Made by a program: the position numbers and the translations under genes. A model generated the notes under the pieces. It made no database searches and was not told the origin of the DNA. It saw only the letters and a program-made list of their open reading frames with translations. Positions 43,651 through 60,150 of a DNA stretch of 64,000 bases are shown here, piece by piece; the stretch's first letter is position 1, and each line of letters starts with the position of its first letter. Source of the stretch: Escherichia coli (lineage in GTDB: Bacteria; Pseudomonadota; Gammaproteobacteria; Enterobacterales; Enterobacteriaceae); assembly GCF_003790525.1 (NCBI RefSeq), contig NZ_CP033635.1; one strand, 5' to 3'.

Positions 43651-45078
43651 CTAGCGCGACTGCTGATTATATTCATCATCGCGTTGATAAGCTTCATCAT
43701 TCGGCTGCTCCGGAACCGACCGCAGTCGATACTCTTCATCCTGGCTCACCGCTTGTTCAGCCAAATCCGGATTAATCTCGCGTTTAATTTCTACCCCTAA
43801 ACCGCGAAACGCTTCTGCCTGCGCCAGCACATTTCCGCGACCTGAAGAGAGTTTTTTCATTGCCTGGCGGTAGTTATCCTGCGCTTTGTCGAGACTTTGA
43901 CCAATCGCTGACATGTCATCGACGAACAAACGCATCTTGTCGTACAGCTTGCTGGCACGATCGGCGATTTGCTGGGCGTTGCGGCTTTGATGCTCATAAC
44001 GCCACAGGTTGGCGATAGTGCGCAGCGCCACCAGCAGCGTAGTCGGGCTAACCAGCATGATATTGTTTTTCAACGCTTCGGTGATCAGCTCCGGCTGGCG
44101 GTCAAGCGCCAGTAAAAAAGCGGGTTCAACGGGAATAAACATCAGAACGTAATCCAGGGTTCGCAGCCCCGGCAGCTGTTGATAATCTTTGCGTCCCAGC
44201 AAACGGATATGGTTACGCACCGACGCGATATGTTCCTGTAGCGCGCTTTCGCGGGTGTAGTCATCTTCGGCGTTGAAATAGCGTTCATAGGCGACCAGCG
44301 TCATTTTGGCGTCGATCACCACATCTTTTCCCTGCGGCAACCGCACGATGACATCCGGCTGCATCCGCGAGCGGGCGTCATTTTCGATGCTGACCTGGGT
44401 TTCATATTCATACCCTTCACGCAGACCGGAAGCCTCCAGCACCCGCGTCAATACTACCTCGCCCCAGTTGCCCTGGGTTTTATTGTCGCCTTTCAGCGCA
44501 CGCGTCAGGTTGATCGCTTCCTGGGCCATCTGGGCGTTGAGTTGCTGGAGGTTGCGGATTTCGTGAGTCAGGGTATGACGTTCTTGGGCTTCTTTACCAA
44601 AGCTGTCCTGGACCTGACGGCGGAAACCGTCCAGTTGTTCACGTAGCGGCGACAACAGGCTGTTCAGGCTCTGACGGTTTTGCTCATCAACCCGGCGATT
44701 GCTGTGCTCAAAAATACGGTTGGCGAGGTTTTCAAACTGCTCACTGAGGCGCTGCTCGCTGTTAATCATCTGGCGAATTTTATCGTCAGCATGTTGCTGT
44801 GCAGCTTCCATCCGCGTGGTTACTTCACGCAGATCGGCCTCCAGAGAGGTGTTAATACTTTGCAGGCTGCGCACTTCGTTATTGAGTAACTCGCACTCAG
44901 CGCGCCAGTGCTCGCTTTGAGTAATTTGTTGTTTTGCCGCGCTTAACTCCGCGACCATCTCTTCACGTTCAGCTAATTGCTCGGCTTTTTGCTGCGCATG
45001 TTGATAACTGGCAAACAGCCAGCCAATTGCCACACCCACCAATGCAATAACTGCGTAAACCATGATTGAGAAATCCAC
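43651..45078 (-). CDS. rmuC: DNA recombination protein RmuC
   Basis: 475-aa ORF with N-terminal TM segment and long coiled-coil region. Confidence 0.9.
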   Translation of the reverse strand: MDFSIMVYAVIALVGVAIGWLFASYQHAQQKAEQLAEREEMVAELSAAKQQITQSEHWRAECELLNNEVRSLQSINTSLEADLREVTTRMEAAQQHADDKIRQMINSEQRLSEQFENLANRIFEHSNRRVDEQNRQSLNSLLSPLREQLDGFRRQVQDSFGKEAQERHTLTHEIRNLQQLNAQMAQEAINLTRALKGDNKTQGNWGEVVLTRVLEASGLREGYEYETQVSIENDARSRMQPDVIVRLPQGKDVVIDAKMTLVAYERYFNAEDDYTRESALQEHIASVRNHIRLLGRKDYQQLPGLRTLDYVLMFIPVEPAFLLALDRQPELITEALKNNIMLVSPTTLLVALRTIANLWRYEHQSRNAQQIADRASKLYDKMRLFVDDMSAIGQSLDKAQDNYRQAMKKLSSGRGNVLAQAEAFRGLGVEIKREINPDLAEQAVSQDEEYRLRSVPEQPNDEAYQRDDEYNQQSR

Positions 45079-45196
45079 AACGCCTCCTGACGCAACAACT
45101 TACCCGCACAAAATAGAATTGTGCTGTACAAACGTCCAGTTTGAAAGAAGTTTCCTGCGAGGCGCTACGCAAAACGATCGTTAATTTTCATTATTT

Positions 45197-45234
45197 TATC
45201 CCACAATATGAGATGGAGTTTATATTGTGGGATA
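45197..45234. promoter_or_regulatory. Perfect 13-bp inverted repeat, candidate operator in the rmuC / IclR-operon intergenic region
   Basis: tatcccacaatat (45197-45209) and atattgtgggata (45222-45234) are exact reverse complements separated by 12 bp, about 60 bp upstream of the IclR-family gene start. Confidence 0.5.
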
Positions 45235-45294
45235 TATCACCTTTTCCCCACGTCATTATGTGGAACACTTCAGCAATATCATCAGGAGAAACGT

Positions 45295-46062
45295 ATGGCA
45301 GAAACCTCTTCAACCACCGCAGGCGCACAAACGTTATTACGTGGACTGGCGGTTCTTAATGCTGTTTATAACGGCTGCCATGACCTAAAAAGTATCGGCG
45401 AGTTCACCGGCACGACCCGGAGCACAACCCATCGTTTAGTCACCGTTCTGGTGGAACAACGCTACCTGCGCCATGTCCCAACGCAGGGCTACCAACTGGG
45501 TGCCAAACTGATCGAATTCGGTGCCAGAGCACTGGAAAGCACCTCGCTGTACGAAATTGCCCAGCCCGTTTTGCAACGCCTTGCCCGTTACACCCTGGAC
45601 ACCGTGCATCTGGGGATCGTTGAAGGCGACGAAGTGCTGTATCTGGAGAAGATCAACAGTCAGCGCGGGCTGGAAATGCGCTCACGCCCAGGCCATCGCA
45701 TGCCACTGGCAATCACCGGCATCGGCAAAGCATTGATACTCAACCGAACAGAAGAAGAGTGGCGCACGCTGTTTAAGACCTGTGGTGATGAAACAAAACT
45801 GGGCGCATTTATTCAGAACATGCGTCGTTATGCCGCCAGTGGTTTTGCTTTTGATCTGGAAGAGAACGAGCCGACTATCCGTTGCGTTGCAGCGCCGGTT
45901 TACAACGCCCGGGATGAAATTGTGGCGGCTATTTCTGTCGCCAGTACCACCACGTATATGTCGCTGGCGCGTCTGGAAGAACTGGCACCTTACGTCAAAT
46001 CCTGTGCAGAAGAGATATCCGCTGAACTGGGCTGGGGTAAGCACGTCCGCAAAGATAAATAA
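45295..46062 (+). CDS. IclR-family transcriptional regulator
   Basis: ATG at 45295 with aggag RBS; N-terminal HTH region (LKSIGEFTGTTRSTTHRLVTVL) and C-terminal IclR effector-like domain. Not in the K-12 order as recalled. Confidence 0.8.
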   Translation: MAETSSTTAGAQTLLRGLAVLNAVYNGCHDLKSIGEFTGTTRSTTHRLVTVLVEQRYLRHVPTQGYQLGAKLIEFGARALESTSLYEIAQPVLQRLARYTLDTVHLGIVEGDEVLYLEKINSQRGLEMRSRPGHRMPLAITGIGKALILNRTEEEWRTLFKTCGDETKLGAFIQNMRRYAASGFAFDLEENEPTIRCVAAPVYNARDEIVAAISVASTTTYMSLARLEELAPYVKSCAEEISAELGWGKHVRKDK

Positions 46063-46085
46063 ACCATGATTAAAGGAAACGACTA

Positions 46086-47090
46086 ATGCCGGGAGCACCC
46101 TCATTTATTGCCCTGGACTGGGGAACGTCATCGCTTCGGGCATGGCGTTTTGGCGAATCACCAAATCCACAAGAAAAACGTGAATTCCCCTGGGGGATCA
46201 TGAAATTACCCTCCCAGGCAGCAACACGTGAGGACGCTTTCCACGATACGTTTTTACGTGTCTGCGGCGACTGGCTGGCACAAACCCCATGCCCGGTACT
46301 GGCTTGCGGCATGCTCGGCAGTGCGCAAGGGTGGCAACCAGCAGCTTATTTACCTTGCCCGGTCACTCTCGAGGGTCTGGCGAAGCAGTTGACGCCAGTT
46401 ATCCACCAGCAGCAGACAATGCTGCACATCATTCCTGGCGTGATTAAAGAAGGTGAAATGCCCGAAGTGATGCGTGGCGAAGAGACACAAATCTTCGGTG
46501 CTATCTCGATGGAACCGGCCCTGCAAAACGCGATCCATCAGGGTATGCCAGTGCTGATAGGCTTACCCGGCACACATGCGAAATGGGCAGTAGTTGAAAA
46601 CAACACCATTACCGATTTCCGAACCTTTATGACGGGCGAGTTATTTGATGTTTTATCCCGCCATTCGATTCTCGGTGCCACCATGCATCCTGGAGATGAA
46701 CCGCACTGGGATGCCTTCACCCACGGGCTGACAGCAGCACAAGAGCATCATCAGACCGGATTATTATCGACGCTGTTTTCGACCCGTTCGCGCCTGCTGA
46801 CCAGTAATCTTACGTCGTCCTCGCAGGGGGATTACCTTTCCGGATTACTGATAGGCCATGAATTATGCGGTCTGGCATCCAGTTTGCTACGTGATTTACC
46901 CGCCACAACACCGATCGCCTTAATCGGTAGCGCAAATCTGAACAGCCGCTATTCACAAGCATTCAGCCACGTTTTTCCCGACAGACAGATACACGCCATT
47001 CCTAATGCCACTGAACAGGGATTATGGCGAATCGCCCACGCTGCCGGGTTACTGTCCACCAACGCCAGGGAATGTACCCATGCCATTTAA
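46086..47090 (+). CDS. 2-dehydro-3-deoxygalactonokinase (DgoK)-family sugar-acid kinase
   Basis: 334-aa ORF with DgoK-family signatures IALDWGTSSLRAW, VMRGEETQIFG, PGTHAKW, FRTFMTGELF. Confidence 0.8.
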   Translation: MPGAPSFIALDWGTSSLRAWRFGESPNPQEKREFPWGIMKLPSQAATREDAFHDTFLRVCGDWLAQTPCPVLACGMLGSAQGWQPAAYLPCPVTLEGLAKQLTPVIHQQQTMLHIIPGVIKEGEMPEVMRGEETQIFGAISMEPALQNAIHQGMPVLIGLPGTHAKWAVVENNTITDFRTFMTGELFDVLSRHSILGATMHPGDEPHWDAFTHGLTAAQEHHQTGLLSTLFSTRSRLLTSNLTSSSQGDYLSGLLIGHELCGLASSLLRDLPATTPIALIGSANLNSRYSQAFSHVFPDRQIHAIPNATEQGLWRIAHAAGLLSTNARECTHAI

Positions 47091-47709
47091 GACGCTTTTG
47101 CAAAAAACCGGGTTAGTCGCCATTTTACGCGGCGTGAAACCGGATGAGATTGTCGCCATCGGTGAAAAACTGTACGCCGCCGGATTCCGCCTGATTGAGA
47201 TTCCTATGAACTCGCCGGAGGCGTTGCAAAGTATCAGTTTACTGCGCGACGCCCTGCCTAAGGATTGCCTGGTCGGAGCCGGAACTGTGCTTTCGGTAGA
47301 GCAGGTGGTTGCGGTTAAAGAGGCTGGGGGCCAGATTATCGTGATGCCGCATTGCGATACTGCGGTGATCCGTCGCGCCCGTGCGCTGGGTATGTATTGT
47401 GCGCCTGGCGTCGCCACGCCCACCGAAGCCTTTGCTGCCATTGAACATGGTGCTAATGCCATCAAGCTGTTCCCGGCTGAACAAATTACGCCAGAAGTTA
47501 CCAAAGCCTGGCGTGCGGTTATTCCACAATCCGTTCCGATGTTACCGGTTGGCGGTATCACACCGGAAACCATGGCGCGTTATCTGAGCCACGGCGCAAA
47601 CGGCTTTGGCCTCGGTTCTGCGCTATATCACCCCGGCATGACGCCAGAGCAAGTCTATGAAAATGCAGTACTGTTTATGAACGCATGGAACAATTTAAAT
47701 AGCAACTAA
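47080..47709 (+). CDS. KDPG/KDPGal-type class I aldolase (DgoA/Eda family)
   Basis: ATG at 47080 (MPFKTLLQKTGLVAILRGVKPDEI...); motifs AILRG, IEIPMNSP, GAGTVL, CAPGVATPTEAF, GGITPE resemble DgoA. Overlaps the kinase by 11 nt. Confidence 0.8.
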   Translation: MPFKTLLQKTGLVAILRGVKPDEIVAIGEKLYAAGFRLIEIPMNSPEALQSISLLRDALPKDCLVGAGTVLSVEQVVAVKEAGGQIIVMPHCDTAVIRRARALGMYCAPGVATPTEAFAAIEHGANAIKLFPAEQITPEVTKAWRAVIPQSVPMLPVGGITPETMARYLSHGANGFGLGSALYHPGMTPEQVYENAVLFMNAWNNLNSN

Positions 47710-47733
47710 CTGATAAATAAGGATATAAAAGCA

Positions 47734-48708
47734 ATGATAAAACATCTTACCTTACCGAAAAAAATGGCTGCAATGGTACTTCTTGCAGGCGCTGCCCTCA
47801 GCATTGCGCCTGTACAGGCAGCCTCCTACCCAACCAAACAGATCGAGTTAGTCGTTCCCTACGCTGCCGGAGGCGGTACGGATCTGGTTGCCCGTGCCTT
47901 TGCTGATGCCGCCAAAAACCATTTACCCGTCAGCATCGGGGTTATCAATAAACCTGGCGGAGGCGGTGCTATCGGCCTGAGTGAAATCGCCGCTGCCCGC
48001 CCTGGCGGTTACAAAATTGGTTTAGGCACGGTTGAACTGACCACCCTTCCCAGCCTCGGAATGGTGCGTTTTAAAACCAGCGATTTTAAACCCATTGCCC
48101 GTCTAAACGCGGATCCGGCTGCTATCACCGTCCGTTCTGATGCGCCGTGGAATAGCTATGAAGAATTTATGACTTACGCCAAAGCGAATCCCGGAAAAGT
48201 ACGCATTGGTAACTCAGGCACCGGAGCTATCTGGCATCTGGCGGCAGCTGCACTGGAAGACAAAACGGGTGCGAAGTTTTCTCATGTCCCGTATGACGGC
48301 GCAGCCCCTGCCATTACAGGCCTGTTAGGCGGGCATATTGAAGCGGTTTCCGTAAGCCCAGGAGAAGTTATCAACCATGTGAAAGGCGGCAAGCTGAAGA
48401 CACTGGTAGTGATGGCGGATGAGCGAATGAAAACCATGCCTGACGTCCCGACGTTAAAAGAGAAAGGCGTTGATCTCTCCATCGGCACCTGGCGCGGCCT
48501 GATTGTGTCGCAAAAAACGCCGCAGGATGTGGTGGATGTTCTGGCAAAGGCAGCAAAAGAGACGGCTGAAGAGCCTGCATTCCAGGATGCACTGCAAAAG
48601 TTGAATCTCAACTATGCATGGCTTGACGCTGCCAGCTTCCAGACCCAAATCAGCGAACAGGAAAAGTACTTTGACGAGTTGCTGACTCGCCTGGGCCTGA
48701 AAAAATAA
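47734..48708 (+). CDS. tctC: Tripartite tricarboxylate transporter periplasmic substrate-binding protein (TctC/Bug family)
   Basis: 324-aa ORF with signal peptide (MAAMVLLAGAALSIAPVQAAS) and Bug/TctC-like sequence; aggat RBS. Confidence 0.8.
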   Translation: MIKHLTLPKKMAAMVLLAGAALSIAPVQAASYPTKQIELVVPYAAGGGTDLVARAFADAAKNHLPVSIGVINKPGGGGAIGLSEIAAARPGGYKIGLGTVELTTLPSLGMVRFKTSDFKPIARLNADPAAITVRSDAPWNSYEEFMTYAKANPGKVRIGNSGTGAIWHLAAAALEDKTGAKFSHVPYDGAAPAITGLLGGHIEAVSVSPGEVINHVKGGKLKTLVVMADERMKTMPDVPTLKEKGVDLSIGTWRGLIVSQKTPQDVVDVLAKAAKETAEEPAFQDALQKLNLNYAWLDAASFQTQISEQEKYFDELLTRLGLKK

Positions 48709-48724
48709 ACCTGAGGTACGGTTG

Positions 48725-49231
48725 ATGAACACAAAACAGTCTGTTGCTCAACTCGCCGTACCGCACCGCAAGCGCCTTTCATCAACGATGGTGGTGGCGC
48801 TGTTACTTTGTGTGGTTGCTGGCGCGGTGATGATTAATGCCGCTGATTTTCCAGCAACTGCCATTGAAACGGATCCCGGTGCAAGTGCCTTCCCTACCTT
48901 CTATGCCTGTGCCCTGATTGTGCTCGCTGTCTTGCTGGTGATACGCGATCTTTTGCAGGCAAAACCAGCCTCTTGCGCCAACGCACAGGAAAAACCGGCA
49001 TTCAGGAAAACGGCAACAGGAATTGCGGCAACCGCGTTTTATATTGTGACGATGAGCTACTGCGGTTATCTCATTACTACTCCTGTTTTCCTCATCGTCA
49101 TTATGACGTTGATGGGCTACAGGCGATGGGTACTCACACCGGGTATTGCGCTGCTGTTAACGGCAATCCTCTGGTTGCTGTTTGTCGAAGCGTTACAGGT
49201 GCCATTGCCTGTCGGCACATTTTTCGAATAA
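48725..49231 (+). CDS. tctB: Tripartite tricarboxylate transporter small membrane subunit (TctB family)
   Basis: About 168 aa, four predicted hydrophobic segments; sits between TctC-like and TctA-like genes. Start at ATG 48725 (TTG 48722 is an alternative). Confidence 0.65.
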   Translation: MNTKQSVAQLAVPHRKRLSSTMVVALLLCVVAGAVMINAADFPATAIETDPGASAFPTFYACALIVLAVLLVIRDLLQAKPASCANAQEKPAFRKTATGIAATAFYIVTMSYCGYLITTPVFLIVIMTLMGYRRWVLTPGIALLLTAILWLLFVEALQVPLPVGTFFE

Positions 49232-49243
49232 CAGGGGCCAGCA

Positions 49244-50734
49244 ATGTTTGAAAGTGAACTTTTAACTCAGGGTTTTTCGACATTACTCAATAATCCTCAG
49301 GCGCTGCTGTTTGCCACTTTTGGGGTGATGCTGGGTATTGTGATTGGCGCTTTGCCTGGTCTGACAGCGACCATGGGTGTGGCGATTTTGCTGCCTTTCA
49401 CCTACGGCATGGAGCCTGTTTCTGGCTTGTTGATGATTTGCGGCGTCTTTTTTGGTGGCGTCTACGGTGGTTCTATCACCGCAATTTTGCTCAAAATTCC
49501 CGGAACGCCTGCCGCCGCAGCCACCGCTATTGATGGTTATGAGCTGACGAAACAGGGAAAAGCAGGGCTGGCATTGAGTGCCGCCACGTTCTCTTCCTTT
49601 AGTGGCGGAACGCTCAGCATTATCGTGCTGATGTTTCTCTCTCCGGTACTTGCCAGTTGGGCGCTGAAATTTAGTGCCTCGGAGTCCTTCGCCCTGGCAA
49701 CCTTCGGACTGAGCATTATTGCCAGTATTTCCGGTGAGTCACTGATTAAAGGGCTGATTGCCGGGGTTGGCGGATTGCTGATCGCAACGATAGGCCTTGA
49801 TCCAATGGGCGGTTTTCCACGGTTTACAGGTGGATTTGTGGAGCTGATGAATGTGCCATTTATCCCGGTGATGATTGGTTTATTTGCTGCTTCAGAAGCA
49901 TTCCGCTCTATGGAGCAAAACCAGCAAATTCGTCAGGGGGCGAAGGTGGCTATCGGCAGTCTGTTACTGCCCTGGCAAACACTACGCCGCATTGCATTAA
50001 CCATTTTGCGCTCATCAGGATTAGGGGTTTTTATCGGCATGATCCCCGGTGCGGGGGCGGATATTGCAGCTTTTGTTGCCTATAACGAAACTCGTCGTTT
50101 CAGTAAGACACCAGAAAACTTTGGTAAGGGTGAAATTAAAGCTGTGGCCTCCTGTGAGGCAGGCGCGAATGGCTGCACCGGTGGCGCATTGTTACCTATG
50201 CTGACGCTGGGGATCCCTGGCGATGCGGTAACCGCCATCATGCTGGGCGCGTTAACGTTACAGGGAATGCAACCAGGCCCGCTGATGTTTACCGACCACG
50301 GCGATATGGTTTATACACTGTTTGTCGGCATGATCTTCTGTTACTTCATGCTACTAGTTCTTGGACTGCTCTCTTTGAAAGTCATCGGTAATGTGGTGAA
50401 AATTCCCGGCAATATTCTCACACCGATGATCCTCGCACTTTGTGTGGTCGGGACTTATGCGTTGAACAATAGCCTGTTTGATGTTGGCATTATGCTGATT
50501 GCAGGCGTGGTGGGCTATTTCATGCAGAAAGGAGGATATCCGGCATCACCCGTAGTGCTGGCATTGATTATGGGGCCAATGGCGGAAAGTAATTTTCGCC
50601 GTGCGCTGTCGCTTTCTGGTGGGTCACTCGACTTTCTGTATACCCGACCGATAACTCTGGCATTGCTGACTCTGGCAGCCTTTACGCTACTGACGCCAAT
50701 AATCCGCAAAATAATGCGTTTACGGCGTCAATAA
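49244..50734 (+). CDS. tctA: Tripartite tricarboxylate transporter large permease (TctA family)
   Basis: 496-aa polytopic membrane protein with the duplicated TctA/DUF112-type glycine-rich architecture (e.g. GALPGLTATMG, GMIPGAGADIAAF). Confidence 0.8.
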   Translation: MFESELLTQGFSTLLNNPQALLFATFGVMLGIVIGALPGLTATMGVAILLPFTYGMEPVSGLLMICGVFFGGVYGGSITAILLKIPGTPAAAATAIDGYELTKQGKAGLALSAATFSSFSGGTLSIIVLMFLSPVLASWALKFSASESFALATFGLSIIASISGESLIKGLIAGVGGLLIATIGLDPMGGFPRFTGGFVELMNVPFIPVMIGLFAASEAFRSMEQNQQIRQGAKVAIGSLLLPWQTLRRIALTILRSSGLGVFIGMIPGAGADIAAFVAYNETRRFSKTPENFGKGEIKAVASCEAGANGCTGGALLPMLTLGIPGDAVTAIMLGALTLQGMQPGPLMFTDHGDMVYTLFVGMIFCYFMLLVLGLLSLKVIGNVVKIPGNILTPMILALCVVGTYALNNSLFDVGIMLIAGVVGYFMQKGGYPASPVVLALIMGPMAESNFRRALSLSGGSLDFLYTRPITLALLTLAAFTLLTPIIRKIMRLRRQ

Positions 50735-50742
50735 CTGATATC

Positions 50743-50769
50743 GCTCCCCGAAGTTGGGGAGCGTTTTTT
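50743..50769. terminator. Bidirectional terminator between convergent tctA and udp
   Basis: Hairpin gctccccgaagttggggagc followed by a T-run. Confidence 0.65.
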
Positions 50770-51532
50770 ATTTCAGCAGACGACGCGCCGCTTCCACCAC
50801 GATTTTCACCGCATGGCTTTCGGTTTGTTTCATCGTCTCAGCATTCGGGATCTCTTGCTGGGTGCGGTTAACGATAACCCCCGCTACCATACCGGCACGC
50901 AGGCCCTGACTTGCACACATGGTCAGCAGGGTTGCAGATTCCATTTCATAGTTCATTACGCCCATCGCCTGCCACTCTTCCATAGAACCTTTAAAGTGAC
51001 GAACTACGCGACCAGAGTAAGTATCGTAACGTTCCTGACCCGGGTAGAAGGTATCAGAAGAAGCCGTCACACCAACGTGAGTGGTGGCACCAATTGACTT
51101 CGCCGCTTCAACCAGCGCAGTCGTACATTCGAAATCAGCGACAGCCGGGAATTCCAGCGGTGCGAAGTGCAGGCTCGCACCATCCAGACGAACAGACGCC
51201 GTGGTAACCAGGACATCGCCAACATTAATATGCGGCTGAATAGCGCCTGTTGTGCCGATACGCAGGAAGGTGCGAATGCCCAGCTGTGCCAGCTCTTCAA
51301 CAGCAATAGAGGTAGACGGGCCGCCGATACCGGTAGAGCAGACGATAACAGGTTTACCATCCAGCTCTGCACGCCAGGTGGTGAATTCGCGATGAGATGC
51401 CAGCTTAACCGGCTTATCCATCAGCGCGGCGATCTTTTCCACACGATCCGGGTCGCCAGGGACGATGGCAAGCGTAGCCCCTTGTAAATCGTTTTTAGTG
51501 AGGCCGAGATGAAAAACATCAGACTTGGACAT
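50768..51532 (-). CDS. udp: Uridine phosphorylase
   Basis: Start taken at [31 protein letters not shown] (253 aa). Confidence 0.93.
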
Positions 51533-51654
51533 ATACAACTCCTCTGTGAATCGGTTTAGTCAGAAGAAGCAAAAAGACACTTTACCGAAGGGTTTAACAT
51601 TTTTTCGTGATACTCATCACCATGACGAAAATGCGTTGCATAAATTTACCCGCC

Positions 51655-51690
51655 AAAAGTGATGCAAATCACATAAATCACTCTTCATTC
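51655..51690. promoter_or_regulatory. CRP/CytR-type operator region of the udp promoter
   Basis: Minus-strand tgtgatttgcatcact resembles the CRP half-site consensus TGTGA-N6-TCACA; a second gtgat-containing repeat is adjacent. Confidence 0.5.
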
Positions 51691-51793
51691 TGCAGGACTG
51701 CATAAAAGATGAGCCGATTCAGGCAATGTGATTTGTTGCATGCTGACTATAGTTAACATTGCGCAACATTTTTATAAGGGTACGGAGAATACC

Positions 51794-52859: not shown

Positions 52860-53528
52860 ATGACGCAATCCATTTTTCAGGCTCAACCCTTTGAATTACC
52901 TTTTGATCCGCGCACAACTGCACTGGTCATGATCGACATGCAGCGTGACTTTGTCGAAGCAGGGGGCTTCGGTGAGGCACTGGGCAATGATGTTTCACTG
53001 GTACGCACGGCTATCGCACCATGTACAGAGGTGCTGGCAGCCGCACGTCAAAAAGGAATTATGGTTATTCATACTCGTGAAGGCCATCGTGCAGACTTAA
53101 GCGACTGCCCGCCAGCCAAACTGACGCGCGGCGGAAAAACCTTTATTGGTGAACCAGGACCGATGGGACGCATTCTGGTCAGAGGTGAAGCAGGTCATGA
53201 CATCATTCCTGAACTGTACCCGGTGGCAGGCGAACCGGTGATTGATAAGCCTGGCAAAGGCGCGTTTTATCAAACCGACTTACATCTGATTTTGCAAAAC
53301 CACGGTATCAAGACGCTGATAGTTTGTGGTGTTACAACCGAAGTTTGCGTAACCACCACCGTGCGCGAAGCAAATGATCGTGGCTATGAATGCATTATCC
53401 CGGAAGATTGTGTCGGCTCCTATTTCCCGGAATTCCAGAAATACGCCCTCGAGATGATCAAAGCACAAGGTGCCATTTTCGGTTGGGTTACTGATTCCAA
53501 AGCCATTATTGCAGGCCTGGAAGGCTAA
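52860..53528 (+). CDS. Isochorismatase-fold cysteine hydrolase (amidohydrolase; RutB/BiuH/CSHase-like)
   Basis: 222-aa ORF with aggag RBS; motifs ALVMIDMQRDF (Asp) and LIVCGVTTEVCV (catalytic Cys context) typical of this subfamily. Confidence 0.75.
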   Translation: MTQSIFQAQPFELPFDPRTTALVMIDMQRDFVEAGGFGEALGNDVSLVRTAIAPCTEVLAAARQKGIMVIHTREGHRADLSDCPPAKLTRGGKTFIGEPGPMGRILVRGEAGHDIIPELYPVAGEPVIDKPGKGAFYQTDLHLILQNHGIKTLIVCGVTTEVCVTTTVREANDRGYECIIPEDCVGSYFPEFQKYALEMIKAQGAIFGWVTDSKAIIAGLEG

Positions 53529-53533
53529 CACCG

Positions 53534-54394
53534 ATGGTACAGGTTACGCTTTGCGCATCGTCGTTGGGATATCTTTTCCCGCAGAATGAAACGCAAGATT
53601 TACGTCTACATAGCGCTTTTAAACATGCGGTAAATCTGTATTCAGACGCGGGAACATTCATCACTCTGTTGTGTGCGCAAACGTATCTGAATCTCCCTGA
53701 TGCAGCCAGAGTCTGGCTACCTGAATGTTGGGACTGGCGAAGAGAGATTGCCCATTCAGATCCCATTCAGTTAACCCCAGGCTTACTGCGGACACCTCGA
53801 TTTTGTGTGGCGCTCGAAAACGCAACGCTCTGGCAGTCGCCATTTGTGGGGGGAATGCTGACACTTGAGGCATTCCCTTTGGTTTTCCAGCACTACCCAA
53901 CGATGGCATCGCAACGGCTTTTATTTTGTCTGGAACATAACGTTCAAAGCACATTGCACCTGCCGGATAGTCTCACGCACCAGGGATTAGCGATTATGGA
54001 GCATCCAGATGCGCTGGAACGCCAGGTGCCACAACTGATCGGCTTTGGTAAAGGCTTAACGCCCGATGGAGATGACTATTTGTTGGGCTATCTGGCAGCA
54101 CTCTGGTTATGGCAACTCCCTGCACCACTTGCCGATCATCAATACCGGTTGCAGCAGGTAATTGATCAACATGCGCACAACACCACGGATATCAGTCGTC
54201 ATTATCTGGAGCGTGCGCTTCAGGGACATTTTTCAGAACCGATTTGCCAGTTACTCGCACAACTGGTTGGGAGTGCATCGGCAATGACAATCGCATCCTG
54301 TGCAGAACAGGTCATGCAATTTGGCGCAACGTCAGGAGTAGATTGCCTTGCAGGAATGCTGCATGGCTTTCGAACCCTGAACACCATAAATTGA
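53534..54394 (+). CDS. DUF2877-family protein (YahE/YlbF-like)
   Basis: 286-aa ORF starting 5 nt after the preceding stop; resembles YahE / AllH-type proteins that accompany FdrA-like genes (from memory). Confidence 0.6.
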   Translation: MVQVTLCASSLGYLFPQNETQDLRLHSAFKHAVNLYSDAGTFITLLCAQTYLNLPDAARVWLPECWDWRREIAHSDPIQLTPGLLRTPRFCVALENATLWQSPFVGGMLTLEAFPLVFQHYPTMASQRLLFCLEHNVQSTLHLPDSLTHQGLAIMEHPDALERQVPQLIGFGKGLTPDGDDYLLGYLAALWLWQLPAPLADHQYRLQQVIDQHAHNTTDISRHYLERALQGHFSEPICQLLAQLVGSASAMTIASCAEQVMQFGATSGVDCLAGMLHGFRTLNTIN

Positions 54395-54488
54395 TTTCAA
54401 CCTTTTCTCCCGTAGCCCGTTTATGGGGCTACACGGGGATGCTTTGCCCGAATTTTGCTATCGGGCGGAATGAAACAGGCGTAACAGC

Positions 54489-56048
54489 ATGAAAGTTAAA
54501 TATAAAGTTTTCAGTAATCTTTATCAGGACTCAGTTTCTCTGATGCAGATTTCCGCGCAAATCAGCAAGTTGCCCGGTATTCAACAGGCCTCGGTCGTCA
54601 TGGGAACACCCAATAATCTCGAGCAATTGAGCGATGCGGGTCTGGGTAACGAAATCAACGCCAGTCCCAATGATTTAGTGATTGCAGTCATGGGTGAAGA
54701 AGATATTTGCAATGAAGCACTGGTACTGGCCCAGCAACGTCTGACCAGCAAACCCGATGATGAAACGGATAGTGGCATTAAAACACCGGAAAAGGTCAGC
54801 CTGGAAATGGCACTGGAAGCCGAGCCCGAAGCCAACCTGGCACTCATTTCTGTACCGGGAGACTACGCCGCCGCCGAAGCAATTAAAGCGTTAAACCTCG
54901 GAATGAACGTGATGATGTTCAGCGATAACGTCAGTATCGTGCAGGAAAAATCCATCAAAACGCTTGCCCGAGAACGTCAGCGCATCGTAATGGGACCTGA
55001 CTGTGGAACCGCCATTGTTAACGGCATTCCGTTAGGCTTCGCTAATGTGGTGAAACGCGGAGCAATTGGTGTTATTGGCGCGTCAGGCACCGGGCTACAG
55101 GAAGTGACTTGCCGAATCGACCAGCTCGGAGCGGGTATTTCTCAGGCGTTGGGAACAGGCGGACATGATCTCAGTGAAGAGATTGGTGGAATATCGATGC
55201 TCTTCGCTTTAGATGCGCTGGCGCAAGACGATGAAACTCGCGTGATTGTGCTTATTTCAAAACCGCCTTCACCGATCGTTGCCCGGACTATTCTGGAGCG
55301 TGCCGAGGCTTGTGGAAAACCCGTGGTGGTGAATTTCCTCGGTGCGAATCCGCATGATCTGGCACGTCCCAATATCACCGCGGCCACCACACTTGCCAGC
55401 GCCGCAAATATCGCCGTGGCGTTACTGAATGATCAACCACTTCCGACTATCGAGACCGAAATTTCCTGCGACGATCTCACAATGTTACAAAACGCCTGCC
55501 AGCGCCTGCCAGCCCATCGCCAGGCGATACGCGGTGTTTTCGCCGGAGGAACCTTCTGCTACGAAGCGCAACTTATCTGCCAACAAAAGGGATTCAGCGC
55601 AGCCTCCAATACGCCAGTTGCGGGTAATCGTGCTCTGGCAAATATCTGGCAAAGCGAAGATCACACGTTGATCGATATGGGCGACGATGATTTCACCCGT
55701 GGCAAACCGCATCCAATGATCGACCCGACTCTGCGCAATCAACGTCTGCTCAACGAACTCAACGACTCACACACTGCCGTCGTGTTATTCGACCTGGTAC
55801 TTGGTTATGGCGCTTCCACGACGCCTGCCAGCGAATTACTGGACCAACTTTCACACATCGACATGAATAACGCACCGTTGCTGATTGCGCACGTTTGCGG
55901 AACGGAAGCTGATCCGCAAATACGCAGTCAGCAGATAAGCGCACTACAAAATGCAGGGGTCATCATCGCCAGCAGCAATGCACAGGCGGCGTTATGGGCC
56001 AGCACCGTTGCACAGACTCAGTTGCAGAAAAAGGGGCTAAACGCATGA
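54489..56048 (+). CDS. FdrA/YahF-like protein (succinyl-CoA-synthetase-alpha-like, CoA-binding fold)
   Basis: 519-aa ORF with Gly-rich nucleotide/CoA-binding-like segments (VIGASGTGLQEV, GTGGHD). Confidence 0.7.
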   Translation: MKVKYKVFSNLYQDSVSLMQISAQISKLPGIQQASVVMGTPNNLEQLSDAGLGNEINASPNDLVIAVMGEEDICNEALVLAQQRLTSKPDDETDSGIKTPEKVSLEMALEAEPEANLALISVPGDYAAAEAIKALNLGMNVMMFSDNVSIVQEKSIKTLARERQRIVMGPDCGTAIVNGIPLGFANVVKRGAIGVIGASGTGLQEVTCRIDQLGAGISQALGTGGHDLSEEIGGISMLFALDALAQDDETRVIVLISKPPSPIVARTILERAEACGKPVVVNFLGANPHDLARPNITAATTLASAANIAVALLNDQPLPTIETEISCDDLTMLQNACQRLPAHRQAIRGVFAGGTFCYEAQLICQQKGFSAASNTPVAGNRALANIWQSEDHTLIDMGDDDFTRGKPHPMIDPTLRNQRLLNELNDSHTAVVLFDLVLGYGASTTPASELLDQLSHIDMNNAPLLIAHVCGTEADPQIRSQQISALQNAGVIIASSNAQAALWASTVAQTQLQKKGLNA

Positions 56049-57469
56049 ATACCTTATTTAATCAGCCTTTGAAGGTTGTGAACGCGGGACTACACAGTTT
56101 TGCTGACAATATTCAACATGCCGGGGGAAGCGCAATTGCACTCAACTGGCAGCCACCAGCACAAGGCGATATTGACGCTGGATTGGATCTGGCATCGTTG
56201 CTACGTCATCCCCTGGTAGAAAATGCCAACCAAATCGCCATGACACGTTATCTCGAAGCACAGCCCGTGCTGGTGGATGTCATGCTCGCTAAAGAGGCCA
56301 TTCCAGAAATGGCTGAACAAAAACGTATTTTGCACTCTGGCCCGCCGATTGCCTGGGAAGAGATGTGTGGTCCGGTAAAAGGGGCGATTATTGGTGCCAT
56401 GCTGTACGAAGGTTGGGCCACCAGCCAGCAAGACGCTGAAAACCAAATAAACGCAGGCGAAATCGACCTTGCCCCTTGTCATCATTATCACGCGGTTGGC
56501 CCAATGGCAGGCATCATCAGCCCGTCGATGCCGTTATGGGTGGTAGAAAACAAAACCAACGGCCACCGTACTTTTAGCAATTTCAATGAAGGTCTGGGTA
56601 AGGTTCTCCGTTTTGGCGCCAATAACGATGAAGTTCTCAATCGTCTGGCCTGGATGCGCGATGAACTGGCGCCGGCAATGAAAGCAGCAATCGCACAACA
56701 CGGCGAGCTGGAACTCAAGCCATTAATGGCGCAGGCGCTGCATATGGGGGATGAAGTTCATAACCGCAATGCTGCCGCTACCGGTTTGCTGATTAAGCGC
56801 CTGCTCCCGGCATTGCTGGCCTGCTCTCTTCCACAGGAACATATCCAGCGCGTCGTGGCATTTATCACCGGTAACGATCACTTCTTCCTCAATCTTTCGA
56901 TGGCCGCCTGTAAAGCAATGATGGATGCCGCCGCCAATGTACCGTTCAGTTCAATGGTTACGGTGATGGCGCGTAACGGGGTGAATTTTGGTATTCGGCT
57001 TTCCGGTACTGGCGATCGCTGGTTCCAGGCTCCTGCCAATGCCGTTGAAGGTCTGTTCTTCCCCGGATTTGGCGTCGACGATGCCGCTGCTGACCTGGGT
57101 GATAGCGCAATTACTGAAACCGCAGGTGTGGGTGGCTTCGCGATGGCGTCGTCTCCGGCGATCGTCAAATTTGTGGGAGGCACCCCTGCCGATGCCACCA
57201 ATAACAGCCGTCGGATGCAAGCCGTCACCCTCGGCGGTAACCCCGCATTTACACTTCCAGCCCTCAATTTTGCCCCCACCGCAGCAGGGATTGATGCGCG
57301 TAAAGTGACCGATCGCGGCATTTTACCGGTCATCAATACGGGTATCGCCCACAAACAAGCGGGGGTCGGGCAAATTGGTGCCGGGATCACCACTGCGCCG
57401 ATGGCCTGTTTTGTCGCCGCTGTACGTGCACTGGCGGAGATCGTCGCAAAGGAGAACCATCATGGTTAA
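56045..57469 (+). CDS. DUF1116-family protein (YahG/YlbE-like)
   Basis: Start at ATG 56045 overlapping the FdrA-like stop (ATGA); aagggg RBS 8 nt upstream; 474 aa. Confidence 0.65.
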   Translation: MNTLFNQPLKVVNAGLHSFADNIQHAGGSAIALNWQPPAQGDIDAGLDLASLLRHPLVENANQIAMTRYLEAQPVLVDVMLAKEAIPEMAEQKRILHSGPPIAWEEMCGPVKGAIIGAMLYEGWATSQQDAENQINAGEIDLAPCHHYHAVGPMAGIISPSMPLWVVENKTNGHRTFSNFNEGLGKVLRFGANNDEVLNRLAWMRDELAPAMKAAIAQHGELELKPLMAQALHMGDEVHNRNAAATGLLIKRLLPALLACSLPQEHIQRVVAFITGNDHFFLNLSMAACKAMMDAAANVPFSSMVTVMARNGVNFGIRLSGTGDRWFQAPANAVEGLFFPGFGVDDAAADLGDSAITETAGVGGFAMASSPAIVKFVGGTPADATNNSRRMQAVTLGGNPAFTLPALNFAPTAAGIDARKVTDRGILPVINTGIAHKQAGVGQIGAGITTAPMACFVAAVRALAEIVAKENHHG

Positions 57470-58418
57470 GCCACTGGCTGTCGTCGCGGTTGGCGGCAAT
57501 GCGCTCATTCAGGACGAGCAACGCAATAGTATTCCCGATCAATATGTTGCAGTGATGGAAAGCGTGCAGCATATCGTTGATATGGTTGAAGCCGGATGGG
57601 ACCTGGTGCTAACCCACGGTAATGGCCCGCAGGTGGGCTTTATTCTGCGCCGCTCTGAACTCGCCAGTAACGAAGTTTCTCCGGTTCCACTTGATTACGC
57701 CGTGGGTGATACACAAGGTGCAATTGGCTACATGTTCCAGAAAGCACTGCATAACGAATTGGCTCGCCGTGGCATAAACAAACCGGTAATTGCCCTGGTG
57801 ACACAAACGCGAGTCAGCCCACATGACGATGCTTTCGCCAGCCCCAGTAAACCAATTGGCGCGTTTCTCGATGAAGCAACGGCCCAACAACGCCAACAAC
57901 AACTCGGCTGGACGCTGATGGAGGACGCCGGGCGTGGTTGGCGGCGTACAGTTCCCTCTCCTGCCCCACTGGAAGTTATTGAGCACGACACCATCGCTCA
58001 CCTGGTGCGCCAGGGATATCTGGTTATTGCCTGCGGCGGCGGCGGTATTCCGGTGGTGCGAGACGGACAACAACTGAAAGGTGTAGAAGCCGTGATCGAT
58101 AAAGATCTGGCCTCCGCGCTGCTCGCCAGTCAGTTAGGCGCAGATCTGCTGGTGATCCCCACCGGTGTAGAAAAAGTGGCGATTAACTTTGGTACACCAC
58201 AACAACAGTGGCTCGACGCTATCAGCGTTGCCGAAGCGCAAACGCTGTTGCGGGAAGGTCAGTTTGGTGTCGGCAGTATGCAACCCAAAGTGGAAGCCAT
58301 TGTTGATTTCATCAATGCCAGCCAGCAACAAGGCAAACAGGCCAGCGGCCTGATTACTTCACCGCAAACCATAAAAGCAGCCCTGGCGCATCAGAGCGGT
58401 ACATGGATAACCCTTTAA
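57462..58418 (+). CDS. Carbamate kinase
   Basis: Start at ATG 57462 (MVKPLAVVAVGGNALIQ...), aggag RBS; amino-acid-kinase-fold motifs (VLTHGNGPQVG, IACGGGGIPVV); 318 aa. Confidence 0.8.
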   Translation: MVKPLAVVAVGGNALIQDEQRNSIPDQYVAVMESVQHIVDMVEAGWDLVLTHGNGPQVGFILRRSELASNEVSPVPLDYAVGDTQGAIGYMFQKALHNELARRGINKPVIALVTQTRVSPHDDAFASPSKPIGAFLDEATAQQRQQQLGWTLMEDAGRGWRRTVPSPAPLEVIEHDTIAHLVRQGYLVIACGGGGIPVVRDGQQLKGVEAVIDKDLASALLASQLGADLLVIPTGVEKVAINFGTPQQQWLDAISVAEAQTLLREGQFGVGSMQPKVEAIVDFINASQQQGKQASGLITSPQTIKAALAHQSGTWITL

Positions 58419-58434
58419 TTCTCTGGAGAACACA

Positions 58435-58824
58435 ATGACTACAACGCTTTTAGCCGTTAACGGAACGCTGATGCGCGGCCTGGAACTCAACCCAAATATG
58501 CAAAAAGCGGGCGGTATTTTTGTCCGTGAAGACCGAACTGACGCCCATTACCGGTTGTGGAGTATTAATGATCGCCATCCGGGAATGATTCGCGTGAATG
58601 AAGGAGGAACACACGTCGACGTAGAAATTTGGCAATTACCGCTGGCCAGTTTTGCCGCTCTGTTAATGAGCGAACCCGCTGGGCTGGCAATTGGCAAAAT
58701 CAAACTTGCCGATGGTAGCGAAGTGCTGGGCGTACTGGCAGAAAACTGGCTGACCGAAGGCCAACGGGAAATTACAGAACTGGGTAGCTGGCGCAAATAC
58801 ACCGGGCATTTTCATACTGTGTAA
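58435..58824 (+). CDS. AIG2 / gamma-glutamylcyclotransferase-like small protein
   Basis: 129-aa ORF; N-terminal LLAVNGTLMRG resembles the GGCT/AIG2 fold; ggag RBS. Confidence 0.55.
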   Translation: MTTTLLAVNGTLMRGLELNPNMQKAGGIFVREDRTDAHYRLWSINDRHPGMIRVNEGGTHVDVEIWQLPLASFAALLMSEPAGLAIGKIKLADGSEVLGVLAENWLTEGQREITELGSWRKYTGHFHTV

Positions 58825-58849
58825 CGCGCATTTATAAAGGGAACATACT

Positions 58850-60073: not shown

Positions 60074-60150
60074 TTCCTGGGTATACTCAGGCAATGATTA
60101 CGGCTGAATCTGGAGAGATTCAGCCACTTTACCACTGACCAGGAAGCCTT

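What the first reader, a model, noticed from the sequence alone, without database searches (positions are those of the whole stretch)
45079..50767. 5.7-kb accessory module between rmuC and udp: IclR regulator + DgoK-like kinase + DgoA-like aldolase + TctCBA transporter
As I recall the K-12 order, udp is followed directly by rmuC. Here an opposite-strand six-gene block is inserted. It pairs the kinase and aldolase steps of a De Ley-Doudoroff-type route with a tripartite tricarboxylate transporter (a family that is sparse in enterobacteria but abundant in Bordetella-type genomes) and an IclR regulator, rather than the GntR regulator, dehydratase and MFS transporter of the canonical dgoRKADT operon. 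The missing dehydratase implies the imported substrate is already a 2-keto-3-deoxy sugar acid (for example 2-dehydro-3-deoxy-galactonate or -gluconate, or a related acid). The kinase and aldolase overlap by 11 nt (47080-47090), consistent with coupling. No integrase, transposase or obvious direct repeats flank the block.
Basis: partly seen in the sequence, partly recalled or inferred. Interest (0 to 1): 0.7.

Follow-up and report, generated by a model that had tools for sequence, protein, structure and literature searches.

The report
Keto-deoxy sugar-acid uptake and breakdown operon
About a quarter of E. coli strains, but not K-12, carry a self-contained six-gene operon that most likely imports a ready-made 2-keto-3-deoxy sugar acid and splits it into pyruvate and glyceraldehyde-3-phosphate; it is real and untested in the lab, but it is an ordinary kind of catabolic module.

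Summary
Between rmuC and udp lie six co-oriented, tightly packed genes: an IclR regulator, a DGOK-family kinase, a DgoA-type class I aldolase and TctC/TctB/TctA. K-12 has only a 140-bp spacer there. The block is in 1457 of 5426 complete E. coli genomes, always at this site, with no mobility genes, flanking repeats or GC deviation.

It is probably not a recent insertion. Buttiauxella, Pseudocitrobacter, Phytobacter and a Klebsiella indica-like genome carry it at the same locus, and one E. coli keeps a decayed relic. Old residence with repeated loss fits better.

The cassette is widespread in Proteobacteria. None of about 35 related loci has a recurring dehydratase. In Bacilli the orthologous transporter sits beside a PfkB KDG kinase and a KDPG-type aldolase.

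The stereochemistry is unresolved. The aldolase carries KDPGal-type residues (Val157, Ile). Yet relatives link the cassette to alginate-type DEH reductases or to KduI, both of which make KDG.

A similar locus was predicted in 2017 to take up D-galactonate. I found no experimental work. Verdict: a new variant of a known kind, of moderate interest.

The parts
45173..45294 (+). Module-specific leader and regulatory region. K-12 homology ends at about 45172. A Shine-Dalgarno AGGAG lies upstream of the IclR ATG at 45295.
   Evidence: Junction alignment with K-12; sequence printed.
45197..45234 (.). Perfect 13-nt inverted repeat TATCCCACAATAT-N12-ATATTGTGGGATA. Candidate operator of the IclR regulator (inferred).
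   Evidence: the repeat finder. A TCCCAyATATrGGGA palindrome is conserved upstream of the orthologous iclR genes in Buttiauxella, Pseudocitrobacter, Phytobacter and the K. indica-like genome.
45295..46062 (+). IclR-family transcriptional regulator, 255 aa. Presumed repressor and sensor of the operon.
   Evidence: RefSeq annotation. NCBIfam hits to BhcR, KdgR, PcaR and IclR models are all below their equivalog cut-offs. The orthologue in L092 carries Pfam HTH_IclR + IclR_C.
46086..47090 (+). [quoted passage not shown]
   Evidence: Pfam PF05035 at 6e-89 over the full length. 35% identity to K-12 DgoK. Closest PDB entries are 3R1X and 3T69.
47080..47709 (+). Class I (Schiff-base) 2-keto-3-deoxy-6-phosphohexonate aldolase, DgoA type, 209 aa. 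Overlaps the kinase gene by 11 nt.
   Evidence: NCBIfam PRK09140 scores 320 bits (cut-off 207); the eda model scores 136, below its cut-off of 156. 46% identity to K-12 DgoA. The catalytic Glu and Lys are conserved, with Val157 (= DgoA V154) and a beta1 strand LVAIL (= DgoA I12 type).
47734..48708 (+). TctC/Bug-family periplasmic substrate-binding protein, 324 aa, with a Sec-type signal peptide (...APVQA|AS).
   Evidence: PF03401 on the 99%-identical P0001. Closest solved structure is 4X9T (Polaromonas Bpro_3516, ligand unknown), followed by Vibrio TTT-C 25HK. The signal peptide is read from the translation.
48725..49231 (+). TctB small membrane subunit, 168 aa.
   Evidence: Pfam PF07331 at 2.5e-21; RefSeq start.
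49244..50734 (+). TctA large permease subunit, 496 aa.
   Evidence: Pfam PF01970 at 1.2e-151.
50742..50763 (.). G+C-rich hairpin CGCTCCCCGAAGTTGGGGAGCG followed by a T run. Intrinsic terminator-like site between the convergent tctA and udp genes.
   Evidence: scan_promoters_terminators, 9-pair stem with 7 G-C pairs.

Best explanation
[quoted passage not shown] The periplasmic TctC protein captures the free acid, which is KDGal and/or KDG. TctBA carries it across the inner membrane. The DGOK-family kinase phosphorylates C6. The class I aldolase cleaves the product to pyruvate plus D-glyceraldehyde-3-phosphate. The IclR protein probably represses the operon from the inverted repeat at 45197-45234 until the acid or its phosphate binds.

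What is shown: the gene content, family membership, catalytic residues, operon-like packing, distribution and conserved synteny. What is inferred: the ligand, the kinase and aldolase substrates, and the regulation.

The C4 stereochemistry (KDGal or KDG) is left open. Enzyme family and residues favour KDGal. The genomic context of relatives favours KDG.

In E. coli the block is an old resident of the rmuC-udp site, kept in some lineages (including ST131 and UPEC F11) and lost in others such as K-12.
For: - Six co-oriented genes have gaps of 23, -11, 24, 16 and 12 nt, one terminator, and a conserved palindrome upstream.
- Family membership is established for the kinase, the aldolase and TctC, TctB and TctA.
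- The aldolase keeps the catalytic Glu and Lys.
- TctC orthologues of 59% identity or more lie almost always in the same IclR-DGOK-aldolase-TctCBA cassette. This holds in Rhodoferax, Azospirillum, Skermanella, Brenneria, Stutzerimonas and others.
- No dehydratase recurs in 38 loci, nor in any Pfam-labelled locus.
- In Bacilli the orthologous TctCBA has the same putative pocket residues. There it is joined to a PfkB KDG/KDGal kinase and a Thr-type aldolase. This is a non-orthologous replacement that keeps the same two steps.
- The carrier genome has its own complete dgoRKADT, so the module is not a piece of that pathway.
- External KD-hexonates do not induce their own uptake in E. coli (PMC11219438, citing Lagarde 1973 and Pouyssegur 1974). 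A self-regulated importer would therefore add a capability.
Against: - No ligand is known for this TctC or for its closest solved relative, 4X9T (PMC11452294).
- The stereochemical evidence conflicts. The aldolase carries the KDPGal-type determinants Val157 and beta1 Ile (PMC4915726). Relatives place the same kinase and aldolase types next to A1-R-type DEH reductases, which make KDG and prefer erythro substrates (PMC6011931). Others place them next to KduI plus an SDR.
- A comparable IclR+TTT+dgoK locus was predicted to import D-galactonate (PMC5507952).
- No sigma-70-like promoter was found on the + strand upstream.
Confidence: 0.6

Rival explanations
1. The module salvages lyase-derived 4-deoxy-5-hexosulose uronates. 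These are DEH from alginate and DKI from pectin or glycosaminoglycans. The TTT imports the uronate monomer, an unlinked host reductase or isomerase (for example KduI/KduD) converts it to KDG, and the module's kinase and aldolase act as KDG kinase and KDPG aldolase despite their 'galactonate' names.
For: - An SDR that scores 356 bits against the DEH reductase A1-R (PDB 3AFM/4TKL) flanks the cassette in at least 14 non-enterobacterial loci. It is inside the operon in Stutzerimonas.
- The same SDR type sits with a PL15/17-like lyase and an SSF symporter in Kluyvera.
- Clostridial relatives carry KduI, at 379 bits against a cut-off of 250, with the DGOK kinase and the Val-type aldolase.
- The second-closest solved SBP is the Vibrio TTT-C of an alginate locus. 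The E. coli TctC shares 8 of its 11 mutationally important residues.
Against: - The enterobacterial cassettes lack the reductase and the lactonase.
- No A1-R-like gene was detectable in any E. coli genome at the DNA level.
- The aldolase carries KDPGal-type determinants.
- The Vibrio-type SBPs differ in the 160-169 loop.
Confidence: 0.2
2. The TTT is a high-affinity D-galactonate importer, as predicted for the IclR('GalR')+TTT+dgoK locus of Salinivirga. Dehydration would be done by the unlinked canonical DgoD.
For: - Published in-silico prediction for a similar locus (PMC5507952).
- DgoD is present in the carrier and in 5020 of 5426 E. coli genomes.
- An SDR plus an SMP-30-type lactonase next to many cassettes resembles the galactose dehydrogenase and lactonase pair of De Ley-Doudoroff clusters.
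Against: - No cassette in about 35 loci carries a dehydratase.
- Galactonate would induce the whole dgoRKADT operon through DgoR (established knowledge, from memory), which would make a second kinase and aldolase redundant.
- The associated SDR is an A1-R (DEH reductase) orthologue, not a demonstrated galactose dehydrogenase.
- The Bacilli versions use a KDG kinase with a KDPG-type aldolase.
Confidence: 0.1
3. The transporter is a citrate/tricarboxylate system like Salmonella TctCBA, and the kinase and aldolase genes are functionally unrelated neighbours.
For: Only the family name. TctA, TctB and TctC are the Pfam families of the citrate system.
Against: - The transporter, kinase, aldolase and IclR genes stay linked across Alpha-, Beta- and Gammaproteobacteria and Firmicutes.
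- No TctDE two-component genes are nearby.
- The motif AGGGTD differs from the AAGGPTD of BugD.
Confidence: 0.03

Closest known systems
E. coli dgoRKADT (De Ley-Doudoroff D-galactonate operon)
   Same: It has a DGOK-family kinase and a DgoA-type class I aldolase, with overlapping kinase and aldolase genes. The aldolase shares E37, K126, V154 and I12-type residues.
   Different: The module has no DgoD dehydratase, an IclR rather than a GntR regulator, and a TTT rather than the DgoT MFS transporter. Identity is only 35% and 46%. Both systems coexist in the same genome.
KdgR regulon of E. coli (kdgT, kdgK, eda) and the B. subtilis kdgRKAT operon
   Same: [quoted passage not shown] E. coli KdgR is also an IclR-family protein, and the KdgR model scores 130 bits on the module's regulator. 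Bacilli relatives of the module carry exactly this set with a TTT in place of KdgT.
   Different: The kinase is DGOK/ASKHA rather than PfkB. The aldolase has Val rather than Thr at the stereo-determining site. The transporter depends on a binding protein.
TTT of the alginate utilisation locus of Vibrio sp. C42 (PMC13390454; PDB 25HK)
   Same: It is a TTT embedded in a KDG-forming sugar-acid pathway. It is the second-best solved homologue of the TctC here (E = 7e-64). Of its mutationally important residues, G24, T25, D26, P104, G183, T225 and R227 are identical here and F19 is Tyr.
   Different: It binds unsaturated alginate oligosaccharides. Its 160-169 loop is shorter and different. It is paired with KdgK/Eda-type enzymes and lyases, and E. 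coli has no lyase or DEH reductase at this locus.
Salmonella TctCBA citrate transporter (prototype TTT) and Bordetella Bug proteins
   Same: The three-component architecture and Pfam families are the same.
   Different: There is no TctDE regulator, the binding-loop motif differs, and the genomic association is with sugar-acid enzymes.
IclR('GalR')+TTT+dgoK locus of Salinivirga fredricksonii HL-109 (PMC5507952)
   Same: It is the same type of gene association, noticed earlier by comparative genomics.
   Different: It was predicted to import D-galactonate. It has not been tested and was not connected to E. coli or to the DEH-reductase association.
Sphingomonas sp. A1 DEH pathway (A1-R/A1-R', A1-K, A1-A)
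   Same: Orthologues of the reductase A1-R accompany the cassette in many Proteobacteria. The downstream logic is also kinase plus aldolase.
   Different: E. coli lacks the reductase. I could not establish which protein families A1-K and A1-A belong to.

Membership tests
De Ley-Doudoroff dgo operon (dgoRKADT) | 2-dehydro-3-deoxygalactonokinase of Pfam DGOK | tested here: met
   PF05035 at 6e-89 over the full length; 35% identity to DgoK.
De Ley-Doudoroff dgo operon (dgoRKADT) | KDPGal aldolase (PRK09140) with Schiff-base Lys, Glu, and the V154/I12 stereo-determinants | tested here: met
   320 bits against a cut-off of 207. E, K, Val157 and beta1 LVAIL are present. The determinants are taken from PMC4915726.
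De Ley-Doudoroff dgo operon (dgoRKADT) | D-galactonate dehydratase DgoD in the operon | tested here: not met
   There is no such ORF in 45079-50767. tblastn with K-12 DgoD found none in the related cassettes.
De Ley-Doudoroff dgo operon (dgoRKADT) | GntR-type regulator DgoR and MFS transporter DgoT | tested here: not met
   The regulator is IclR family and the transporter is TctCBA.
De Ley-Doudoroff dgo operon (dgoRKADT) | Enzymatic specificity for KDGal/KDPGal | not testable with these tools
   This needs kinase and aldolase assays. The context of relatives argues for KDG.
Tripartite tricarboxylate transporter (TTT) | TctC-type SBP, 4-TM TctB and 12-TM-class TctA encoded together | tested here: met
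   PF03401, PF07331 and PF01970. The three genes are adjacent with gaps of 16 and 12 nt.
Tripartite tricarboxylate transporter (TTT) | Tricarboxylate (citrate) substrate and TctDE two-component control, as in the prototype | tested here: not met
   No TctD/TctE genes are nearby. The substrate is not testable here.
KdgR-type KDG regulon or operon | IclR-family KdgR equivalog | tested here: inconclusive
   The KdgR model NF011671 scores 129.7 bits, below its cut-off of 275. BhcR scores slightly higher.
KdgR-type KDG regulon or operon | PfkB KDG kinase and an Eda-type aldolase (Thr161) | tested here: not met
   The kinase is DGOK. The aldolase has Val and falls below the eda cut-off.
Horizontally acquired genomic island | Integrase or transposase, tRNA or direct-repeat borders, deviant composition | tested here: not met
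   There are no such genes and no flanking repeats of 10 nt or more. GC is 0.51-0.54 and GC3 is 0.52-0.56, like the flanks. The same locus is occupied in four other genera.

The most novel reading that the evidence does not exclude
The E. coli module is the reduced form of a widespread, unrecognised cassette family. In this family a TTT importer captures monomeric keto-deoxy uronate or hexonate end-products of polysaccharide-lyase digestion (DEH, DKI, KDG). Its 'DgoK/DgoA' enzymes, annotated in thousands of genomes as galactonate-pathway enzymes, would really be a KDG-specific or epimer-promiscuous subfamily. In B2/F-type (ExPEC-rich) E. coli it would allow cross-feeding on keto-deoxy acids released by gut polysaccharide degraders or present in the host, and so act as a lineage-specific colonisation trait.
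Probability: 0.25. Interest if true: 0.6.

Novelty: new variant of a known kind. Interest (0 to 1): 0.4.

Why it matters
- If the model is right, about 27% of sequenced E. coli can use free 2-keto-3-deoxy-hexonates, including pandemic ST131 and classical UPEC strains. K-12 cannot take these compounds up inducibly. That would be a cheap, testable metabolic difference between lineages.
- It would assign the first keto-deoxy sugar-acid ligand to a TTT binding protein. That would also give a ligand to the orphan structure 4X9T.
- It would settle whether a large set of 'KDGal kinase/aldolase' annotations next to TTT genes has the wrong stereochemistry.
- If the model is wrong, this is still just one more uncharacterised accessory catabolic operon.

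Tried and rejected
- NCBIfam has no model that hits the kinase or TctC, TctB or TctA, so Pfam was used instead.
- Rfam found nothing in 44800-51700 at E <= 1. There is no riboswitch or leader RNA.
- The promoter scan found no + strand sigma-70-like site upstream of iclR.
- A search for flanking direct or inverted repeats was negative, and no mobility genes are present. The recent-island model was rejected.
- I looked for TctC positions that track the aldolase type (Val or Thr). Every discriminating column follows taxonomy (Firmicutes or Proteobacteria) and not the enzyme type, so the binding protein does not resolve KDG against KDGal.
- The contexts of TctC orthologues that lack the kinase and aldolase (Marinobacterium L015, betaproteobacterium L020) were uninformative.
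- I tried to learn which families the Sphingomonas A1-K and A1-A enzymes belong to. The papers only name them.
- Literature searches for this E. coli module found only a passing tctA entry in an EPEC RNA-seq table.
- My initial claim of a perfect DGOK-Val and PfkB-Thr correlation was withdrawn. Two loci (L064 and L069) pair a PfkB kinase with a Val-type aldolase.
- Two early Python calls failed because a locus file was not yet available.

Full report
**What is in the sequence**

The window is 100% identical to E. coli SMS-3-5 over the region tested. rmuC (43651-45078) and udp (50768-51532) are both on the - strand. Between them lie six + strand ORFs that match the RefSeq annotation of that genome:
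- an IclR-family regulator, 45295-46062
- a kinase, 46086-47090
- an aldolase, 47080-47709
- a TctC-type binding protein, 47734-48708
- TctB, 48725-49231
- TctA, 49244-50734

The gaps between these genes are 23, -11, 24, 16 and 12 nt. A strong hairpin with a T run follows tctA at 50742-50763. This is the layout of a single operon.

Family membership was tested directly:
- The kinase is a full-length Pfam DGOK protein (6e-89).
- The aldolase passes the NCBIfam KDPGal-aldolase model (320 bits, cut-off 207) and fails the eda model (136 bits, cut-off 156).
- TctA and TctB match their Pfam families.
- The TctC cluster representative, 99% identical, carries PF03401.
- The regulator hits several IclR-family equivalog models (BhcR, KdgR, PcaR, IclR), all below cut-off.

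**Comparison with K-12 and the junctions**

In MG1655, udp is followed by rmuC after 140 bp. Alignment shows that K-12 homology continues from rmuC to about window position 45172 and resumes at the udp stop codon. About 45 bp of K-12 spacer, which holds a terminator hairpin, is replaced here by about 5.6 kb. udp gains one C-terminal Lys. No repeat of 10 nt or more flanks the block. There are no integrase or transposase genes. GC (0.51-0.54) and GC3 (0.52-0.56) match the neighbouring core genes.

**Distribution and history**

A module-only query finds the block in 1457 of 5426 complete E. coli genomes, complete in 1452, at 98.9-100% identity. A query that includes both flanks also gives 1452 complete single-place matches, so the block is always at this site. 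Carriers include O25b:H4-ST131, UPEC F11 and APEC strains.

The same rmuC-udp site holds the same six genes in Buttiauxella warmboldiae, a Pseudocitrobacter, a Klebsiella indica-like genome and Phytobacter massiliensis, where rmuC itself is missing. A divergent Escherichia-like contig also has it.

Between E. coli and these genera, TctA (86-91%) and TctC (79-88%) are about as conserved as the flanking core proteins (72-96%). The kinase (48-59%), aldolase (60-67%) and regulator (64-72%) are much more diverged.

E. coli HS-02 keeps a 1.4-kb relic at this site. It is 81.5% identical, holds only broken ORFs, and sits next to a 3'-truncated udp.

Together these points argue that the module is an old occupant of this locus that many lineages have lost, K-12's among them. 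Exchange by homologous recombination through the conserved flanks cannot be excluded.

**Relation to the canonical galactonate operon**

SMS-3-5 also has a complete dgoRKADT, as do 5020 of 5426 E. coli genomes. The module's kinase and aldolase are only 35% and 46% identical to DgoK and DgoA. They are distant paralogues with their own regulator and transporter. They are not a duplicated piece of dgo.

**The wider cassette family**

I scanned one genome per species with an alignment of TctC orthologues and mapped the six proteins onto the 80 loci returned.

TctC proteins of 59% identity or more lie almost always in IclR-DGOK-aldolase-TctCBA cassettes. These occur in Alpha-, Beta- and Gammaproteobacteria: Rhodoferax, Azospirillum, Skermanella, Acetobacteraceae, Aquincola, Mangrovicoccus and Brenneria. 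The order is rearranged in Spirabiliibacterium and Photobacterium.

I clustered the neighbouring ORFs of 38 loci. The only recurrent families were the six module proteins, an SDR, an SMP-30-type lactonase, a PfkB kinase, KduI and a GhrB-like dehydrogenase. No dehydratase recurred. The ORF calling was crude, but the Pfam-labelled loci agree.

In Bacilli the orthologous TctCBA (51-67% identity) follows an IclR gene. It is followed in turn by a PfkB KDG/KDGal-type kinase and an aldolase.

The common intermediate is a 2-keto-3-deoxy-hexonate, and the transported compound is at or just before that level.

**The unresolved stereochemistry**

Two sites set facial selectivity in these aldolases. They are V154/T161 and the beta1 strand I12/V20, in KDPGal/KDPG aldolase numbering (PMC4915726).

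- The module's aldolase and every cassette aldolase paired with a DGOK kinase have Val and [LI][VI]AILR, the KDPGal type.
- The Bacilli aldolases have Thr and VAV, the KDPG type.
- Two loci pair a PfkB kinase with a Val-type aldolase.

That evidence favours KDGal. The context of relatives points the other way:
- The recurrent SDR scores 356 bits against the Sphingomonas DEH reductases A1-R and A1-R'.
- It flanks the cassette in at least 14 loci and lies inside the operon in Stutzerimonas.
- In Kluyvera it sits with a PL15/17-like lyase and an SSF symporter, a typical oligo-alginate unit.
- A1-R-type enzymes reduce DEH to KDG and strongly prefer erythro over threo substrates (PMC8778563 and PMC6011931).
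- Clostridial relatives combine the DGOK kinase and Val-type aldolase with KduI (379 bits, cut-off 250) and an SDR, again a KDG-forming pair.

No cassette contains a KDGal-forming enzyme. Either the TTT-linked 'DgoK/DgoA' enzymes accept KDG and KDPG, or the reductase serves another purpose. I could not decide between these.

The enterobacterial cassettes lack both the reductase and the lactonase. No A1-R-like gene is detectable in E. coli genomes by DNA search. In E. coli the imported compound must therefore be a direct kinase substrate, or be converted by unrelated host enzymes.

**The binding protein**

The closest solved structure is 4X9T from Polaromonas (E = 3e-99), deposited without a ligand and listed as 'unknown' in a 2024 comparison. 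Next is the 2026 Vibrio TTT-C, which binds unsaturated alginate oligosaccharides.

Of the 11 residues whose mutation weakened or abolished binding in that protein, seven are identical in the E. coli TctC (G48, T49, D50, P128, G210, T252, R254) and F19 is replaced conservatively by Y43. The 160-169 loop (NSGTGAIWHL) differs.

This signature is essentially invariant in all orthologues of 50% identity or more, whether they sit with Val-type or Thr-type aldolases. The few class-discriminating columns follow taxonomy and not enzyme type. The binding protein therefore seems to recognise what KDG and KDGal (or DEH) have in common. This fits old genetics, recalled from memory, in which KdgT carries both epimers.

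**Regulation (inferred)**

A perfect 13-nt inverted repeat lies 61 bp upstream of the iclR start. A TCCCAyATATrGGGA palindrome occupies the equivalent place in the other genera, although the surrounding sequence has diverged. I take this to be the operator of the IclR protein. No sigma-70 consensus promoter was found, and Rfam found no RNA element.

**What is already known**

RefSeq names the genes generically. Leyn et al. 2017 noticed an IclR('GalR')+TTT+dgoK locus in Salinivirga and predicted D-galactonate uptake. An EPEC RNA-seq table lists the tctA gene. I found no experimental study of the module, of its ligand, or of its restriction to part of the E. coli species. A 2024 review recalls that external KD-hexonates do not induce their own uptake in E. 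coli. This gives a plausible selective reason for a self-regulated importer.

**Verdict**

The finding is real, and its functional reading is largely upheld. I make two corrections. The block is more likely an ancient, repeatedly lost resident than an insertion. The 'galactonate' stereochemistry is uncertain, because relatives tie the cassette to KDG-forming uronate salvage. It is an uncharacterised variant of well-known sugar-acid catabolic operons. It would be worth a small set of growth, binding and enzyme assays, but it is not a surprising kind of system.

Noticed in passing
window 52860-61047: This is a second block absent from K-12, where ysgA is followed directly by metE. It holds a cysteine hydrolase/isochorismatase, DUF2877 (AllH-like), FdrA (AllF-like), DUF1116 (AllG-like), carbamate kinase ArcC, an allophanate-hydrolase-related protein, a cytosine permease and a LysR regulator. 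It looks like a carbamate or oxamate-type nitrogen-compound catabolic cluster.
   Followed up: partly
L097 5903-7313 (E. coli HS-02, NZ_CP172818.1): A 1.4-kb decayed relic of the module (regulator plus the 5' part of the kinase) lies between rmuC and a udp pseudogene lacking its 3' end. It is 81.5% identical and holds only broken ORFs. That is far more divergent than any intact E. coli copy, all of which are at 98.9% or more, so its origin is unclear.
   Followed up: partly
L004 6512-7288, L096 10001-10780, L095 10001-10777 and 12 further loci: Orthologues of the alginate-pathway DEH reductase A1-R accompany the kinase-aldolase-TTT cassette in many Proteobacteria, often with an SMP-30-type lactonase of unknown role. 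This conflicts with the KDPGal-type residues of the linked aldolases.
   Followed up: partly
window 50768-50773 (udp 3' end): The module junction coincides with the udp stop codon. udp here encodes one extra C-terminal Lys compared with K-12.
   Followed up: yes
L006 5079-7258 (Enterobacter hormaechei): A copy of the cassette at a different chromosomal site has an extra divergent pair, a second DGOK-family kinase and an Fe-dependent alcohol dehydrogenase, plus a second IclR gene downstream.
   Followed up: no
E. coli genome collection: The canonical dgoKAD genes are missing or undetectable in about 400 of 5426 complete E. coli genomes. I could not cross-tabulate whether these overlap the carriers of the module.
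   Followed up: no
window 45208-45294: The longest ORF for the regulator starts 87 nt upstream of the RefSeq start, at an ATG at 45208, and would run through the inverted repeat. The downstream start at 45295 has the Shine-Dalgarno sequence and aligns with the orthologues, so it is preferred.
   Followed up: yes
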